Assembly: GCA_030390025.1 (NCBI GenBank)
Contig: CM059431.1
Coordinates: 120,406,001 to 120,470,000 of the forward strand
DNA from: Squalus acanthias
Lineage: Eukaryota
DNA length: 64,000 bases
Direction of reading: 5' to 3'
Shown here in pieces: positions 3,092 to 64,000 of the stretch; positions within the stretch are counted from its first letter, which is position 1; the number at the start of each line of letters is the position of its first letter. Made by a program: the position numbers and the translations under genes. The notes beneath the pieces were generated by a model. That model saw only the letters and a list, made by a program, of their open reading frames with translations, searched no databases and had not been told where the DNA came from.

Positions 3092-4175
3092 GAGAGTTCA
3101 GCATAAGATTGGCTATAATACAATATGATCAATATGTGGAGTCAGTTTCTTCAGTAAAAATAAAGGCAGTGTTCAGGCAAAGCCTTTTACTGTCCAGGCT
3201 GCCAGTAAACTTTGATCCAAAATGTGCCATTACAGGAATTGGCCTGTAAGATTGAAATTATAAAACAGAATTTCCCTTTTAAATCTATTTTAAGCCATAC
3301 CCACCATAAATCTGTCAAGACATTCCAGAATTACCTTGAGCACCAAGCTACCTGGGAGATTGGAGAGCATTTTAATAGATGAGAGAATGGACAGAGGTTG
3401 GTTCATGAGATGCTGAGCCAGCCTTGAAACAAAGAGGAAAGATTTGTTCCTCTAAGAAGTTAGGTTATTCTTTCTCAGAAACTGACTGAATAACAGGTCA
3501 TCTGTTTAAGAAACAAACAAATAAGCTGTGTTTCATCTAAGAAACGGATGAGCATGACACTGTAAATGGTAAAGCACTTAAAACTGAGGAGTAGAGCATT
3601 TATATATATCAATGATTGGGACTTGAATGTAGGAAGTATGATTAAGAAGTTTGCAGCTGATACAAAAATAGGCCGTGTGGTTGATAATGAAGAAGAAAGC
3701 TACAGACTGCAGGAAGACATCAATGGACTGGTCAGGTGAGCAAAACAGTGGCAAATGAAATTCAATCTGGAGAAGTGTGAGGTAATGCATTTGGAGAGGG
3801 CTAACAAGGTAAGGGAACACACTATAAATGGTAGGGCACTGAGAAGAGCAGAAGATCAGAGGGACCTTGGAGTGCATGTCCACAGATCCCTGAAGGTAGC
3901 AGGACAGGTAGATAAGGTGGTTAAGAAGGCATACGGGATACTTGCTTTATTAGCTGAGGCATAGGATATAAGAGCAGGGAGGTTATGCTTGAACTGTATA
4001 AAACACTAGTTAGGCCGCAGCTAGAATACTGCTTGCAGTTCTGGTCACCACATTACAGGAAGGATGTGATTGCACTCGAGGGGGTGCAGAAGAGATTTAC
4101 GAGGGTGTTGCCTGGGCTGGGGAATTTTAGCTATGAGGAAAGATTGGATAGGCTAGGGTTGTTTTCTTTGGAACA

Positions 4176-4380
4176 AAAATGAGAAGTCGCACAACACCAG
4201 GTTATAGTCCAACAGATTTATTTAATTTTACAAGCTTTCGGAGCTGTCGCTCCTTCGTCAGGTAAGTTAGCAATGAGAGAATCTCCCAGAATTCACAATT
4301 TAAACCCAGACAAAATCTATTCACATTATTCGCTACAACAAAGAGCACAGCCAAGACAATGAGATGTGTCCCAGGGGGTC
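4176..4380 (-). mobile_element. 205-bp Penelope-like pseudo-LTR fragment (family B) with a 10-bp target-site duplication
   Basis: CTTTGGAACA at 4166-4175 and 4381-4390 interrupts the CR1 frame (FSLEQ|RRLRGDL). Contains a minimal hammerhead motif. PLE assignment is inferred from the hammerhead and TSD. Confidence 0.75.
4228..4265 (-). ncRNA. Minimal type I hammerhead ribozyme motif (family B)
   Basis: The - strand reads TTAC-CTGACGA-A-GGAGC-GACA-GCTCC-GAAA-GCTT-GTAA: CUGANGA/GAAA core, 5-bp stem II, 4-bp stem I, palindromic AAGCTT in place of stem III. Confidence 0.8.
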
Positions 4381-6696
4381 CTTTGGAACAGAGGAGGCTG
4401 AGAGGAGACCTAATTGAGGTGTATAAAATTATGAGGGGCCTAGATAGAGTGGATAGGAAGGACCTATTTCCCTTAGCAGAAGGGTCAATAACCAGGGGTT
4501 ATAGATTTAAAGTAATTGGTCGGAAGTTTAGAGGGGATTTGAGGAGAATTTTTTTCACCCAGAGGCTGGGGGAGGGGTCTGGAACTCACTGCCTGAAAGG
4601 GTGGTAGTGGCAGAGACCCTCATCACATTTAAAAAATACTTGGATATGTACTTGAAGTGCCATAATCTACAAGGCTACGGATCAAGTGCTAGAAAGTGGG
4701 AATAGGGTGGATAGCTCTATGTCAGTCGGCACGGACAAGATGGGCCAAATGGCCTCCTTCTGTGCTGTAAATTTCTATGATTCTATGATTCTATGATTAT
4801 GAGAAAACTGGTTGAGCAAAAATAGTGAGCCTGAAACTGTGAAAGGTACATACCTGAACCTGACTGACCTGAAGTTGAGAGAAAAAGATAGTTCACCTGA
4901 AACTGGTAAGAAAATAGAGCACCCAAAACTAACTAGCAAAGTTATCTTGACTAGAAACCAGCATAAGTATTTGTAAGAAAGCATCCTCAGAATTGACAGA
5001 GCAGAATTGACAATGACAGTGGATTGAAAAAAAAAATTCAAAAAAGAGCTGGAGTCAAATTTTAAAGCTTTTGAAAAAAAGAAATTGTGGAGATTCCACC
5101 TGAATGAGTTATATAGATTGTTCACCAGAAGGACACAGAACAGTATTCAGTGAGAACACTTGTTAACTTGCCCCTTGGCTTTGCACCAGAGTATCTGGAA
5201 CAAAAGTTTGACCTTTGATGATATTAAATGTTTTGCGTTTAACATGGCCTGCATTAATGTTTAACATTAGTATAGAGGTAGACTGGTTATTTAATAATAA
5301 CAAAATGCTTATATGTTATCAGATGTTAACTGTGTTAATGTAAATTGAGCTGCTTAATGTAGGACAATTCATGCTTGCCAAAGGTTTGGGCATTTAAAAG
5401 TGGATAGTGGGCATCCAGGCGATCCTCTTAATGAGGGTTTAGAGAGCTGTCTGGTGCTTGACAATTAATGTTTTCTTGCAAAACTTATGGGTTTAGCTAC
5501 CCATTGCTTTTATTGTAGCCTCATTCCTCAGGTTTGTGAAAAGAAATTTGCCTACATATCTTACTTTGGGTTTAATCATATGGGATGGTGAAAGGAGCCA
5601 TCTAATATTTGAACTTTCTCTTACAATGAGAAGCAGTCAGCAGCTGTGGAAGATAGTTTGTGAGCATTGAAATACTATAGAAATCTGAGATAGCTCTATT
5701 GGAATTGAATGCAGTAAGACATAAGCTTATATTTGTCTAGTAGCCTAACCTATCTTCATAACAAACAAGCACTAAAAACAGTGAAAGCAATGTTATAGAT
5801 CACAATTGCTGTCATCTTGAATCTTGCTTCCTTACACATGTGCTTTTTAGAAGTAATCAAAAAGATGTGCTAAAGCATTGTTTAGCAGTAAACGCCTAGA
5901 ATTTCATTGACACTGCACCCATTTTCCAGGCGTAAAATAGGTGCCTAATTATCTAATGTGGTGGGCGAAGTGCACATGCATATTCCCCGCTGGATGCACC
6001 ACCCACCATATTGGTAAAGATTCCAGTATAGGCATCCAGAACCCGTGCCTGAAACAGGCATTAGGTCCTTTGCATATGCAAATAGGAAGCCTAACTCCTG
6101 CTTGAGGCCCCTTTCCCAAAATTGGGCTGCCTTGCCACAGCCGGTGCAGGGCCTGTTACGTTTAAGATAACCATGTCTACATGCGGCCTAATCAGTGGTC
6201 TTTAAAAGGACCACTGGAGGCCTCCACCGAAGGGGCAAGTTTAAAAAAATACTTACTTGAATGTGGAGCTGGGAGGAGCAGGAGTGCTCCTCCTGGTTCT
6301 ACAGCACTCCCGAAGACCATTGACAGCCCCCACTCGGGGCCCCTCCCGGTCACCCCTCTCCCTCTCTCCCAATCGCCACAGCCGCCCCCCCCACCCTCAG
6401 GACCTACCTGAGAGCAGCTACCGGAGAGGCAGTTGGCCCAACTTCCTACTTGTGGAACTGGTGAGTTGCCTCTTGAGGTCTAATAGGCATCCACAGCTCG
6501 TTGGCCATAGGCTGATGAGGCCCGATTTTGGGTGAGCATCAGGCTTCTGGCTTCTGGTCCACGCGCCCTTATTTCAGGTTTGAAAGTGGGCCAAAACAAC
6601 AGCTGCTGATAATTTTTCAAACATTAATTTATTAAGTTGGCATCTGGTTAAAGTTTCCAATCTTCATGAAGTGGAAAAAAATGATAATTTCACAGG

Positions 6697-8780: not shown

Positions 8781-8817
8781 AGTTAACGTTTCAGGTCGAA
8801 GACCTTTCGTCAGAACT
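8781..8817 (-). ncRNA. Minimal hammerhead ribozyme motif (family A) in the inverted pLTR
   Basis: - strand AGTT-CTGACGA-A-AGGTC-TTC-GACCT-GAAA-CGTT-AACT. Confidence 0.8.
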
Positions 8818-8850: not shown

Positions 8851-9969
8851 CCTTCACATGGTCCATCTCCGACTCTTCCCTTCCCTTCCTCGACTTCTCC
8901 GTCTCCATCTCTGGGGATAGGTTATTGACTAACATTCACTACAAGCCCACTGACTCCCACAGCTACCTGGACTACACTTCCTCCCACCCCGCCTCCTTTA
9001 AGGACTCTATTCCATTCTCCCAGTTTCTCCGTCTCCGCCGCATCTGCTCTGACGATGCCACCTTCCATACCAGTGCTTCCGACATGTCTTCCTTTTTCCT
9101 CAACCGAGGATTCCCCTCTACTGTGGTCGACACGGCCATCGACCGTGTCCGTTCTATCTCCCGCACTTCTGCCCTCACCCCTGTCCCTCCCTCCCGGAAC
9201 CACGATAGAGTTCCCCTTGTCCTCACCTTTCGCCCCACCAGCCTCCACATTCAACGTATCATCCTCCGCCATTTCCGCCACCTCCAGCGTGATCCCACCA
9301 CCAAACGCATCTTCCCCTCACCTCCCCTTTCAGCATTCTGCAGGGAGCGCTCCCTCCGCGACACCCTAGTCGCTAAAGGTATCAAGGGATATGGGGAGAA
9401 GGCAGGTACAGGGTACTGAGTTTGGATGATCAGCCATGATCTCATCGAATGGCGGAGCAGGCTCGAGGGGCCGAATGGCCTACTCCTGTTCCTATCTTCT
9501 ATGTTTCTATGTTTTCTCTACCACCCCCAGCACCCCTTCCCCTTCGTCCGGCACCTTCCCGTGCAAGCGCAGGAGATGCAACACATGCCCTTATACCTCC
9601 CCTCTTCCCACTGTCCAGGGCCCCAAACACCCCTTCCAGGTGAAACAGCGATTTACTTGTACTTCCTGCAATTTAGTATACTGTATTCGCTGCTCACGAT
9701 GTGGTCTCCTCTACATTGGGGAGACCAAATGCAGATTGGGTGACCGCTTTGCGGAACACCTCCGTTCAGTCCGTAAGGAGGACCCCGAGCTCCCGGTGGC
9801 CTGTCACTTTAATTCTCCGCTCCACTCCCACTCTGACCTCACCGTCCTTGGCGTATTACACTGTTCCATGGAAGCTCAGCGTAAGCTCGAGGAACAGCAC
9901 CTCATCTTTCGTTTAGGCACCCTACAGCCCTCTGGACTCAATATCGAGTTCAACAATCTTAGATCATAA
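8851..9969 (+). pseudogene. PLE polyprotein C-terminal part: RT thumb, Cys-rich linker and GIY-YIG endonuclease; split by a CR1 fragment
   Basis: PFLDFSV, YKPTDSHSYLDYTSSHP, CKRRRCNTC, NLVYCIRCSRCGLLYIGET, RFAEH, PSGLNIEF. Confidence 0.92.
9372..9514 (+). mobile_element. CR1 3'-end fragment inserted in the PLE ORF
   Basis: KGIKGYGEKAG*, GGCCGAATGGCCTACTCCTG and (TTCTATGT)n tail, matching ~52510-52663. Confidence 0.9.
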
Positions 9970-10247: not shown

Positions 10248-10284
10248 AGTTCTGATGAAAGGTCTTCGACCTGAAACGTTAACT
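10248..10284 (+). ncRNA. Minimal hammerhead ribozyme motif (family A) in the 3' pLTR, sense to the ORF
   Basis: AGTT-CTGATGA-A-AGGTC-TTC-GACCT-GAAA-CGTT-AACT. Confidence 0.82.
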
Positions 10285-23937: not shown

Positions 23938-24068
23938 CAAAAGCAAAATACTGCGGATGCTAGAAATCTGAAACAAAAACAGAAAATGCTGGAAACACTC
24001 AGCAGGTCAGGCAGCATCTGTGGAGGGAGAAACAGAGTTAACGTTTCAGGTCGATGACCCTTCGTCAG
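23938..24068 (-). mobile_element. Short PLE pLTR-plus-tail fragment (family A-related) ending at the hammerhead core
   Basis: Homologous to 10252-10380; - strand CTGACGA-AGGGTC-ATC-GACCT-GAAACGTT-AACT at 24036-24068, with the 5' arm of stem I missing. Confidence 0.85.
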
Positions 24069-28139: not shown

Positions 28140-28646
28140 TGATAGCAAAATACTGCGGATGCTGGAACTCCGATATAACAACAGAAAATGCTAGAAAAAC
28201 TCAGCAGGCCAGGCAGCATCCGTGGAGAGAGAAACAGAGTTAACGTTTCAGGTCGAAGACCTTTCGTCAGAACTGGAAAAAAGCAGGAAATGAAATAGAT
28301 TTAAAGCAAGTATAATGCTGGGAAAAGGGGGAGGGGATGAAAGAACAAAAGGGAAGGTCAGTGGTAGGATAGAAAGCAGGAGAGATTAAGAGACATTGAG
28401 AGACATTAAGAGATATACAAGGCAAGAGGAGGTGGTAATGTGACAGGTTGAGGAATAAAGGATGGCTCTAGATGAAGTGTGAATTGCGCTGGCAGAATGA
28501 AGGACAGCTGCCAGCTTCTGGGAGGGAAGAAAAATAGGCCAAACAAAAGGGTGGATAAAAAAATAAAATAAAAATATGTATATATGTGATGGGGGCCGGG
28601 GTTATGATCTGAAATTGTTGAACTCTATGTTGAGTCCAGAGGGCTC
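28140..28646 (-). mobile_element. Penelope-like element 3' fragment (family A): ORF end, 3' UTR, pLTR with hammerhead (28238-28274) and tail
   Basis: PSGLNIEFNNFRS* on the - strand; collinear with ~9925-10381; 12-bp TSD AATT(A/G)AAAAAGA at 28128-28139 and 28647-28658. Confidence 0.9.
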
Positions 28647-50819: not shown

Positions 50820-50919
50820 AAAATAACAACAGAAAACGCTGGAAAAACTCAGCAGGCCAGGCAGCATCCGTGGAGAGAGAAAGAGAGTTGACGTTTCAGG
50901 TCGATGACCTTTCATCAGA
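50820..50919 (-). mobile_element. 100-bp solo PLE pLTR fragment (family A) with a 10-bp TSD
   Basis: ACTTTGGTTC at 50810-50819 and 50920-50929; sequence nearly identical to 8720-8815. Confidence 0.93.
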
Positions 50920-56653: not shown

Positions 56654-56866
56654 ACAAAAGCAAAATACTGCAGCTGTTGGAAATCTGAAATAAAAACAAA
56701 GAATGCTGGAAGCACTCAGCAGGTCAGGCAGCATCTGTGGAGCGAGAAGCAGAGTTAACATTTCAGGTTAATGACCTTTCATCAGAACTTTCACCGACCT
56801 GAAACTTTTACTCCATTTCTCTCTCTACAGATGCTACCTGACCTGCTGAGTGTTTCCACCGTTTTC
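56654..56866. mobile_element. ORF-less PLE derivative: two inverted pLTR pieces with a decayed hammerhead
   Basis: 56654-56790 (-) plus ~56795-56866 (+); 12-bp TSD GACATTA(C/T)TTTA at 56642-56653 and 56867-56878. Confidence 0.82.
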
Positions 56867-62907: not shown

Positions 62908-64000
62908 TTACGCAAATCTGGCATGGATGAGTGCATCCCTCGCCTGACGGCCAGCAATGTGGTCGCATGCTGCTGCATTGGCCACATCCGGCCCTGCAAG
63001 GCATGCCTCCTCCCCCTCGTCCTCATCCTCGTCCTCCCCCTCCTCCTTGGCCTCCTCCTCGTCCTCTTCCTCCTCATCCTCCTCCTCTTCTTCCGAGGAG
63101 GCTCTGTGCTGAGCCACTTGATCCTCAGGCAGCGCTAAGCCACGCTGCTGTGCGATGTTGTGCAGGGCACAGCAGACGATGATGATTCTGGACACCCTTG
63201 TTGGTGCATACTGCAGGGCTCCACCAGATCTGTCGAGACATCGGAATCACATTTTGAGCAAGCCGATGGTTTGCTTTATGATGTTTCTGGTGGTAAAGTG
63301 GCTCACATTGTACCGCTCCTCAGCCTCGTTTGATGGCCTCCTCATCAGTGTCATGAGCCACTTTTTCAGGGGATAGCCCTTGTCACCAAGGTAATGGTAG
63401 CATAGTTGTTATGTTACTGGACTAGTAATCCAGAGGCCTGGACTAATGATCCAGAGACGTGAGTTCAAATCCCACCACAGCAGCTGGGGAATTTAAATTC
63501 AGTTAATTAAATAAATCTGGAACAAAAAGCTAGTATCAGTAATGGTGACCACGAAACTATCGGATTGTTGTAAAAACCCATCTGGTTCACTTATGTCCTT
63601 TAGGAAGGAAATCTGCCATCCTTACCTGGTCTGGCCTGTATGTGACTCCAGACCCACAGCAATGTGGTTGACTCTAAACTGCCCTCTGAAATGGCTCACC
63701 ACCACCTTCTCGAGGGTAACTAGGGATGGGCATAAATGCTGGCCTTTCCAGCGATGCCCACATCCCATGAACGAACAAAAAAAAAAGTAGCCATCTGGAA
63801 AGTTGTGTTGGCGGATTGAAGAGCTGAGGCACAGTAGACTGCCGCAGGATGAACGAGTCATGGCAACTGCCAGGGTACTTTTCAAAAACATGCATGATGA
63901 ACTTCCTGTGGTTACACACCAGCTGGACGTTAAGGGAGTGGAATCCTTGCGGTTGACAAAAGCAGTTGGGTTGTGATGGCGTGCCCTAATGTGTGCAGTC
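62908..64000 (-). pseudogene. HARBI1-type transposase (C-terminal part), split by a SINE
   Basis: [63 protein letters not shown], acidic tail. Confidence 0.92.
63391..63784 (+). mobile_element. Near full-length tRNA-derived SINE with a LINE-derived 3' tail
   Basis: A-box-like TGGTAGCATAGTTG, B-box GAGTTCAAATCCC (63461-63473), A tail, AAG duplicated; last ~80 nt match 1469-1550. Confidence 0.9.

What the first reader, a model, noticed from the sequence alone, without database searches (positions are those of the whole stretch)
4176..4380. A second, sequence-unrelated hammerhead carrier showing compensatory stem changes
Seen: a 205-bp insertion with a perfect 10-bp TSD has no obvious similarity to family A except for the same geometry. 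Stem I is TTAC/GTAA (vs AGTT/AACT), stem II is GGAGC/GCTCC (vs AGGTC/GACCT) and the palindrome is AAGCTT (vs AACGTT), with the same CTGACGA-A and GAAA core. Inference: covariation between two families in one window supports a selected RNA structure, and the different palindromes could make dimerisation family-specific.
Basis: partly seen in the sequence, partly recalled or inferred. Interest (0 to 1): 0.72.

Follow-up and report, generated by a model that had tools for sequence, protein, structure and literature searches.

The report
Shark-type Penelope fragment with minimal hammerhead
This 205-base insert is a truncated end of a young, abundant Penelope-type jumping gene that carries the small hammerhead RNA motif already known for this class; it and the window's other family are predicted to be unable to pair up with each other, but this lone copy is likely inert.

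Summary
In detail: a 205-bp minus-strand insertion (4176-4380) with a perfect 10-bp target-site duplication interrupts a CR1-type LINE and carries the stated hammerhead geometry. It is the 5'-truncated end (pseudo-LTR) of a young Penelope-like element: 1,239 exact matches to its 36-nt core in the genome, sister copies 97-100% identical, and intact parents with an 892-codon RT + GIY-YIG-type ORF and a Neptune-type zinc linker. Family A's parent is a distant homologue (31-32% protein identity), so the two hammerheads are paralogues. Minimal, palindromic, dimer-type hammerheads in several covarying families per genome were published in 2014 (PMC4209133), including both palindromes in one genome. 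A/B heterodimers are predicted to fail (3 of 12 intermolecular pairs), through stem I as much as through the palindrome; untested. Most copies were made from uncut RNA (93 of 100 run past the cut site). A roughly twofold rise of 5' ends at the predicted cut site is a weak, confounded hint of cleavage in cells. The scan has noted this kind of motif before, in this and other shark-like genomes. New member of a known kind.

The parts
4176..4380 (-). 5'-truncated 3' end (part of the pseudo-LTR) of a young Neptune-type Penelope-like retrotransposon, family B
   Evidence: 100% identical over 205 nt to the pLTR of intact parents L031 and L034; 97-100% identical to the copies at 30 core-bearing loci
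4166..4175 (+). left copy of the 10-bp target-site duplication
   Evidence: empty sites in other CR1 copies hold it once
4381..4390 (+). right copy of the 10-bp target-site duplication
4228..4265 (-). minimal type-I hammerhead motif (stem I 4 bp, CUGACGA, bulged A, stem II 5 bp with 4-nt loop, GAA, AGCU palindrome, U17)
   Evidence: fits the min-HHR consensus in the supplement of PMC4209133; fold z = -2.2 for 4220-4275
4231..4232 (-). predicted cleavage site, 3' of U17 (between 4232 and 4231); 91 nt upstream of the ORF start in the full element
   Evidence: hammerhead numbering (established knowledge); distance; cleavage not shown
4176..4180 (-). 3' end of the copy, at the first of the family's two 3' end clusters (no 'tail')
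   Evidence: 83 of 151 arms end at insert positions 201-215 and 61 of 151 at 234-253
3599..4796 (+). host CR1-type LINE 3' fragment (end of ORF2, 3' UTR, short tandem tail) interrupted by the insertion; limits approximate
   Evidence: open frame across the empty site; extent of matches to other genomic copies; the name CR1 is recalled from the protein motif and tail, no library call gave it
8781..8817 (-). nearest family A hammerhead (comparison only): same geometry, other stems, ACGU palindrome
   Evidence: PLE ORF fragments beside it at 8853-9942

Best explanation
The insert is a 5'-truncated copy of the 3' end of a young Penelope-like retrotransposon with a Neptune-type linker, likely pasted into a CR1-type LINE by target-primed reverse transcription of an RNA whose hammerhead was uncut, and this lone copy is likely inert. 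Shown: duplication, family, intact parents, motif anatomy, two 3' end clusters about 38 nt apart. Inferred from the literature: the element's protein nicks the target, primes internally just downstream of the hammerhead (PMC11167929), and here stopped after about 205 nt. The hammerhead lacks a stable helix III and would cut only as a dimer with a second family B motif (in cis between the two pLTRs of a tandem transcript, about 3,045 nt apart) or with protein help; purifying selection keeps core and stems in the master elements while N7, loop II and H17 drift. Families A and B descend from one PLE ancestor, have diverged in stem I, stem II and the palindrome, and are predicted not to cross-dimerise; that is most likely a by-product of divergence.
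For: TSD and empty site. 1,239 exact core matches, control 0; 16,069 matches to a downstream anchor for the wider B clade. Intact 919-codon stop-to-stop ORF (892 from ATG) between two pLTR copies 3,046 and 3,044 bp apart in L031 and L034; RVT_1 E = 2.3e-08; C-terminal domain aligns with family A's, which hits Pfam GIY-YIG; CX4CX2C linker as defined for Neptune in PMC8557442. Inverted 5'-truncated partners and one-sided tails; 14 of 17 insertion units with 7-15-bp duplications. Among 64 arms spanning the motif, recurrent changes fall at N7, one A-U to G-U site and loop II, and just outside stem I; none recur in the core or palindrome (biased, about half came from an exact-core search). 95.3% of cells paired in 33 B-clade variants, 0 of 500 shuffles as high; U-A to C-G in stem I in 6 of 33. 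93 of 100 listed arms extend 5' past the cut site (read by eye). No second family B copy in the window.
Against: Pfam did not call GIY-YIG on the family B C-terminal 144 aa at E up to 1; the domain rests on motif and homology to family A. Clade rests on the linker, no tree. Stem II pairing is circular (it was in the descriptor); the outer stem I pair fails in 12 of 33 variants; sequence downstream of the motif is as invariant as the motif (partly the anchor). The nearest-neighbour energy of the homodimer is no better than two free hairpins (-18.7 vs -18.6 kcal/mol), and a 125-nt context folds into another structure, so folding into the active form is not a given. About 1.6% of one subfamily's arms begin exactly at the cut site, twice the three upstream positions, so 'uncut template' is not absolute.
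Confidence: 0.9

Rival explanations
1. The hammerhead does cut in germ-line cells, and a minority of family B insertions were copied from cut RNA, so their 5' ends pile up at the cleavage site.
For: For the subfamily of this copy, matches whose 5' neighbour departs from the element number 125 at the cut site (27 of 30 read loci are true breaks), against 64 one base upstream (not read) and 142 for the next two positions together (23 of 30 read are breaks, G at a third position excluded): about 112 against about 55-64 each. Many junctions carry A/T-rich filler. Two earlier AI notes report the same in other genomes (leads only).
Against: No sharp peak: 113 matches one base downstream (not read), and in 100 listed breaks over positions 144-156 the counts by eye are 18, 4, 1, 6, 11, 5, 9 (cut site), 10, 11, 7, 8, 3, 1 plus 6 indels. 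5' ends are about as dense just upstream of the motif (166 matches over 20 nt for a family of roughly 1,240-1,400), so A/T-rich microhomology or a stop at the hairpin can explain the step. Family A's 100 listed rows were not tallied and are crowded with subfamily indels. PMC11167929 found no RNA-seq reads ending at the cut site in Anolis.
Confidence: 0.3
2. Stem I plus palindrome form a selected, family-specific pairing code that keeps A and B ribozymes from cross-cleaving in shared host transcripts.
For: A/B heterodimer keeps 3 of 12 intermolecular pairs and costs about 11 kcal/mol against free hairpins. Of 165 distinct descriptor hits, the two large classes are ACGT and AGCT, each tied to its own stems. 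A and B copies lie on the same strand 4.5 kb apart in this window.
Against: Orthogonality follows from any divergence of a self-complementary motif; only four 4-nt palindromes are possible, and all B subfamilies share AGCT while differing in stem I, which argues against pressure to diversify. Both palindromes in one genome are already listed for Schistosoma mansoni. Nothing here measures selection against cross-pairing.
Confidence: 0.12
3. The motif is kept as a protein-binding or priming structure, not as a working ribozyme.
For: Most copies come from uncut RNA; hammerhead mutants did not affect insertion in vitro in PMC11167929; the motif lies 55-95 nt upstream of both 3' end clusters; intact copies with G at position 17 exist (2 of 30).
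Against: What varies is what catalysis tolerates (N7, loop II, H17 = U or C) and what is fixed is the catalytic core; the Anolis motif cleaved when its protein was added.
Confidence: 0.15
4. The 205-bp unit is a non-autonomous SINE-like element or retrozyme with its own defined ends.
For: Short hammerhead-bearing solo copies are numerous; animal retrozymes derive from PLE pLTRs (bioRxiv 10.64898/2026.07.22.740005).
Against: 5' ends are scattered, most sister copies run on into the ORF, the insert is 100% identical to the pLTR of intact elements, and no tandem array of the unit was seen.
Confidence: 0.03

Closest known systems
Minimal hammerheads (min-HHR) in pLTRs of metazoan Penelope-like elements (Cervera and De la Pena 2014, PMC4209133)
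   Same: CUGANGA + extra base + G-C-closed stem II + GAAA + 2-nt palindrome + UH, short stem I, no helix III; located in both pLTRs; thousands of solo truncated copies; several covarying families per genome; the GAAAGCUU form is listed for a turtle and both ACGU and AGCU forms for S. mansoni.
   Different: No shark row was found in the one supplement file that could be searched (file 1 not searchable). This family is very young, with intact masters. The paper (parts read) does not discuss family-specific dimers.
Neptune clade of EN+ Penelope-like elements (definitions in Craig et al. 2021, PMC8557442)
   Same: Single ORF, RT then C-terminal GIY-YIG-type domain, CX2-5CxxC linker, partial tandems forming pLTRs, inverted 5'-truncated partner, 30-40-bp tail at one end.
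   Different: Assignment is by linker only; no tree. Insertions seen here have clear 7-15-bp duplications and are not confined to microsatellites.
Poseidon element of Anolis carolinensis, PAc (Frangieh et al. 2024, PMC11167929)
   Same: Two 3' end clusters downstream of the hammerhead (internal priming sites); uncut RNA as main template; hammerhead near the ORF start.
   Different: In PAc the ORF starts inside the hammerhead and priming is about 111-118 nt into the ORF; here the ATG lies 91 nt after the cut site and the end clusters lie just before and at the ATG. PAc lacks the Neptune linker (PMC8557442 definition of Penelope/Poseidon).
Non-LTR retrozymes of animals (PMC7229834, listing only; bioRxiv 10.64898/2026.07.22.740005, part 1 and passages)
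   Same: Type-I hammerhead in a short non-coding repeat related to PLE pLTRs.
   Different: Retrozymes are tandem arrays of a defined unit; this is a solo, randomly truncated copy of an autonomous element.

Membership tests
EN+ Penelope-like element | Single ORF with reverse transcriptase | tested here: met
   892-codon ORF in L031 and L034; RVT_1 E = 2.3e-08 above cut-off
EN+ Penelope-like element | C-terminal GIY-YIG endonuclease | tested here: met
   GIY-YIG-like motif pair visible at the C-terminus and aligned to family A's domain, which hits PF01541 at E = 7e-05; family B alone gave no Pfam hit at E up to 1, so the call is indirect
EN+ Penelope-like element | Partial-tandem pLTRs, inverted 5'-truncated partner, one-sided 30-40-bp tail | tested here: met
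   pLTR copies 3,046 and 3,044 bp apart; inverted partners; 3' ends 83 of 151 at 201-215 and 61 of 151 at 234-253
Neptune clade | CX2-5CxxC linker between RT and endonuclease | tested here: met
   CX4CX2C in both family B and family A proteins; definition from PMC8557442 passages
Neptune clade | RT phylogeny groups with named Neptune elements | not tested
   No named PLE reference proteins were fetched; no tree built
Minimal type-I hammerhead of PLEs | Core CUGANGA / GAAA / UH, extra base before stem II, G-C closing pair | tested here: met
   consensus line in supplement of PMC4209133
Minimal type-I hammerhead of PLEs | Palindromic 15.2-16.2, no helix III; short stem I | tested here: met
   AGCU; stem I 4 bp here, 3 bp in 12 of 33 variants
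Minimal type-I hammerhead of PLEs | Self-cleavage as a dimer or with protein help | not testable with these tools
   Only an indirect genomic test: about twofold step of 5' ends at the cut site, inconclusive
Non-LTR retrozyme | Tandem array of a defined non-coding unit, hammerhead in each unit | tested here: not met
   Solo copy, scattered 5' ends, identical to the pLTR of autonomous elements

The most novel reading that the evidence does not exclude
The thousands of near-identical family B insertions record hammerhead cleavage in the germ line: 5' ends rise about twofold exactly at the predicted cut, and each PLE family in the genome runs an orthogonal stem I + palindrome dimer code, so that a ribozyme whose role in living cells has never been shown can be read out, family by family, from genome sequence alone.
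Probability: 0.25. Interest if true: 0.55.

Novelty: new member of a known kind. Interest (0 to 1): 0.2.

Why it matters
As a motif it is ordinary: a further family of the minimal PLE hammerheads described in 2014. Its use is practical. The genome holds intact, near-identical master copies of family B beside a distant family A, a ready pair for asking whether these dimer-type ribozymes cut in cells and whether families cross-react, which PMC8557442 calls still unclear. The breakpoint counts bound the answer: most copies come from uncut RNA, and any cleavage footprint is under about 1% of arms in excess.

Tried and rejected
DNA search of the genome with the whole insert returned nothing because common words are skipped. 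Rfam at E up to 1 lists no hammerhead in the window. No solved-structure relative of the ORF at E up to 0.01. Pfam gave no GIY-YIG hit on family B's last 144 aa. Sequencing runs: 21 listed, all held as contigs; four laid (X1, X2, X5, X16) cover pLTR and ORF, but their RNA status is a guess and contigs cannot show ends, so nothing on expression or cleavage follows. My first reading, a sharp pile-up of 5' ends at the cut site, shrank to a roughly twofold step once neighbours were counted. The lead that the RNA starts capped at the motif's first base was not borne out for family B: among 30 loci 5' ends spread over positions 98-117 (6 at 116) and the preceding base was C 8, A 8, G 7, T 7. Family A breakpoint rows were inspected but not tallied. 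Literature: 'Penelope-like'+'shark'+'Neptune' 0 papers; 'hammerhead'+'heterodimer'+'Penelope' 0 papers; 'shark genome'+'Penelope'+'retrotranspos' 2 listings, not read; five-term search on cleavage-site truncation 8 listings, none on genomic footprints by title. Lunse, Weinberg and Breaker 2016 (dimer cleavage of PLE hammerheads) is not held; I saw only its citation in PMC6765202, and it may already treat heterodimers. No R-scape is available; the count of structure pairs was used instead.

Full report
Observation. The insert is as described. A perfect 10-bp repeat flanks 205 bp at 4176-4380, and the site without it reads as one open LINE ORF2 frame; 60 of 67 BLAST hits among fetched loci cross the junction with no insert. 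The host is called CR1-type from recalled protein and tail motifs, not from a library call. On the minus strand the insert holds stem I TTAC/GTAA, CTGACGA, one extra A, stem II GGAGC/GCTCC, GAA, AGCT and U17. It has no nucleotide match to the six family A motifs of the window. The motif class is not chance: 14 hits with a stem II of 4 or more pairs in 760 kb of evenly spaced genome samples against 0, 1, 0, 0, 0 in five shuffles, and 13 of the 14 carry ACGT or AGCT though the descriptor did not ask for it. Rfam does not model it.

Parent. The 36-nt core has 638 + 601 exact matches in the 3.7-Gb genome G000, control 0. The core-bearing copies at the first 30 loci are 97-100% identical to the insert, 20 of them over nearly its whole length. 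Two fetched loci, L031 and L034, hold an intact 919-codon frame (892 from the ATG) between two copies of the insert 3,046 and 3,044 bp apart. [quoted passage not shown] Pfam did not call that region in family B but did in family A (E = 7e-05), and the two align. The linker marks the Neptune type in PMC8557442 (passages read); no tree was built. The family shows the PLE hallmarks: inverted truncated partners, 3' ends in two clusters, 83 of 151 arms at insert positions 201-215 and 61 of 151 at 234-253 (2 of 153 arms dropped), and 7-15-bp duplications in 14 of 17 units. The window copy ends in the first cluster. A downstream anchor finds 16,069 arms of the wider B clade. That the host is a cartilaginous fish is my recall of these repeats and agrees with earlier AI notes; no call names it.

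Family A. Its 39-nt core has 4,402 exact matches. Locus L069 has two motifs 3,193 bp apart around a broken PLE ORF with the same linker, 31% and 32% identical to family B over 391 and 266 residues. So the carriers are unrelated in DNA but homologous as elements, and the hammerheads sit at the same place in the pLTR: paralogues, not independent inventions.

Is the structure selected? Across all fetched loci the descriptor gave 165 distinct contexts in 74 variants, nearly all of class ACGT or AGCT. In 64 arms collected by a downstream anchor, recurrent changes fall at N7 (C 45, A 12, G 7), at one stem II site (A-U to G-U, 11), in loop II, and just outside stem I; none recur in the catalytic core or palindrome (about half of these arms came from the exact-core search, so invariance is overstated, and the sequence 3' of the motif is equally invariant). 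In 33 B-clade variants 95.3% of cells pair, 0 of 500 shuffles as high; one stem I pair changes U-A to C-G in 6 variants, probably one event; the outer stem I pair fails in 12; stem II was in the descriptor and so is circular. H17 is C in several variants, so the conserved palindrome is the 4-mer, as a double hammerhead needs. This supports selection on the master elements. It says nothing for this copy, which is simply young.

Dimers. In a double hammerhead both helix III and stem I form between the two motifs (established topology). A/A and B/B keep 12 of 12 such pairs; A/B keeps 3 (2 of 4 in helix III, 1 of 8 in the stems I) and is about 11 kcal/mol worse than free hairpins, while homodimers only break even (-18.7 vs -18.6 and -9.7 vs -10.4). 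Specificity is therefore predicted, owes more to stem I than to the palindrome, and would arise from divergence alone. All B subfamilies share AGCT. The window has no second B copy, so this motif has no partner nearby and is likely inert.

Cut or uncut template? The window copy spans the motif, and 93 of 100 listed arms extend past the predicted cut (by eye). I tested for a footprint of cleavage. In this subfamily (43 of those 100 rows, about 6,900 arms) 125 matches begin at the cut site; 27 of 30 read are true breaks, 3 are intact motifs with another base 17. Neighbours: 113 one base downstream (not read), 64 one base upstream (not read), 142 for the next two upstream positions together, 23 of 30 read being breaks. 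That is about a twofold step, not a spike; 100 listed breaks over positions 144-156 spread broadly (by eye), and ends are about as dense just upstream of the motif (166 matches). A/T-rich filler and microhomology shift apparent ends in both directions. The excess is under 1% of arms. A minor footprint is not excluded and not shown. Public runs were contigs only and could not help.

What is known. [quoted passage not shown] PMC11167929 (parts 1-2 of 4) shows internal priming at two sites that explain the tail, protein-assisted cleavage, uncut RNA as the dominant template and no reads ending at the cut. PMC6765202 (passages) reviews the dimer model and cites Lunse et al. 2016, which is not held. 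bioRxiv 10.64898/2026.07.22.740005 (part 1 and passages; supplements closed) finds PLEs and retrozymes in one chondrichthyan. Searches for shark Neptune elements and for heterodimers found 0 papers, which covers only the open library. The scan's own notes report this motif class in this genome and others.

Verdict. Real, well explained, a new member of a known kind. Interest 0.2; the boldest reading left open (a readable cleavage footprint plus orthogonal dimer codes) has probability about 0.25.

Noticed in passing
window 8781-8817 (-), 10252-10276 (+), with PLE ORF fragments at 8853-9942: Family A inverted pair around broken PLE ORF pieces (32-37% identical to the family B protein).
   Followed up: partly
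window 24044-24068, 28246-28270, 50894-50918, 56761-56785 (all -): Four more family A motifs; the last has a decayed palindrome (ATGT), and Rfam's MIR8643 match at 56709-56856 (E = 4e-06, far below its cut-off) lies on it, probably a short inverted PLE insertion folding as a hairpin.
   Followed up: no
window 63407-63483 (+): tRNA-like match at Rfam's cut-off (29.3 bits), likely the head of a tRNA-derived SINE.
   Followed up: no
L159:1518-1560 (-), L165:1518-1560 (-): Otherwise intact family B motifs with G at position 17, which the hammerhead rule excludes; they differ in stem II, so probably separate mutations.
   Followed up: partly
L014-L017, L250/L251, L160, L164: Very short back-to-back inverted insertions whose junctions fall on self-complementary parts of the motif (stem I arms, AGCT in stem II, the palindrome), suggesting these guide the joining of the two cDNAs.
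   Followed up: partly
L037 (G000:C2:25683000-25692000): An inverted family B unit of about 2.8 kb duplicated in tandem, each with an older B-clade insertion beside it.
   Followed up: no
window 4176-4300 (-): In a 125-nt context the predicted minimum-energy fold pairs the motif's 5' half with the sequence at the first 3' end cluster instead of forming the hammerhead; not more stable than shuffles (z = -0.56).
   Followed up: no
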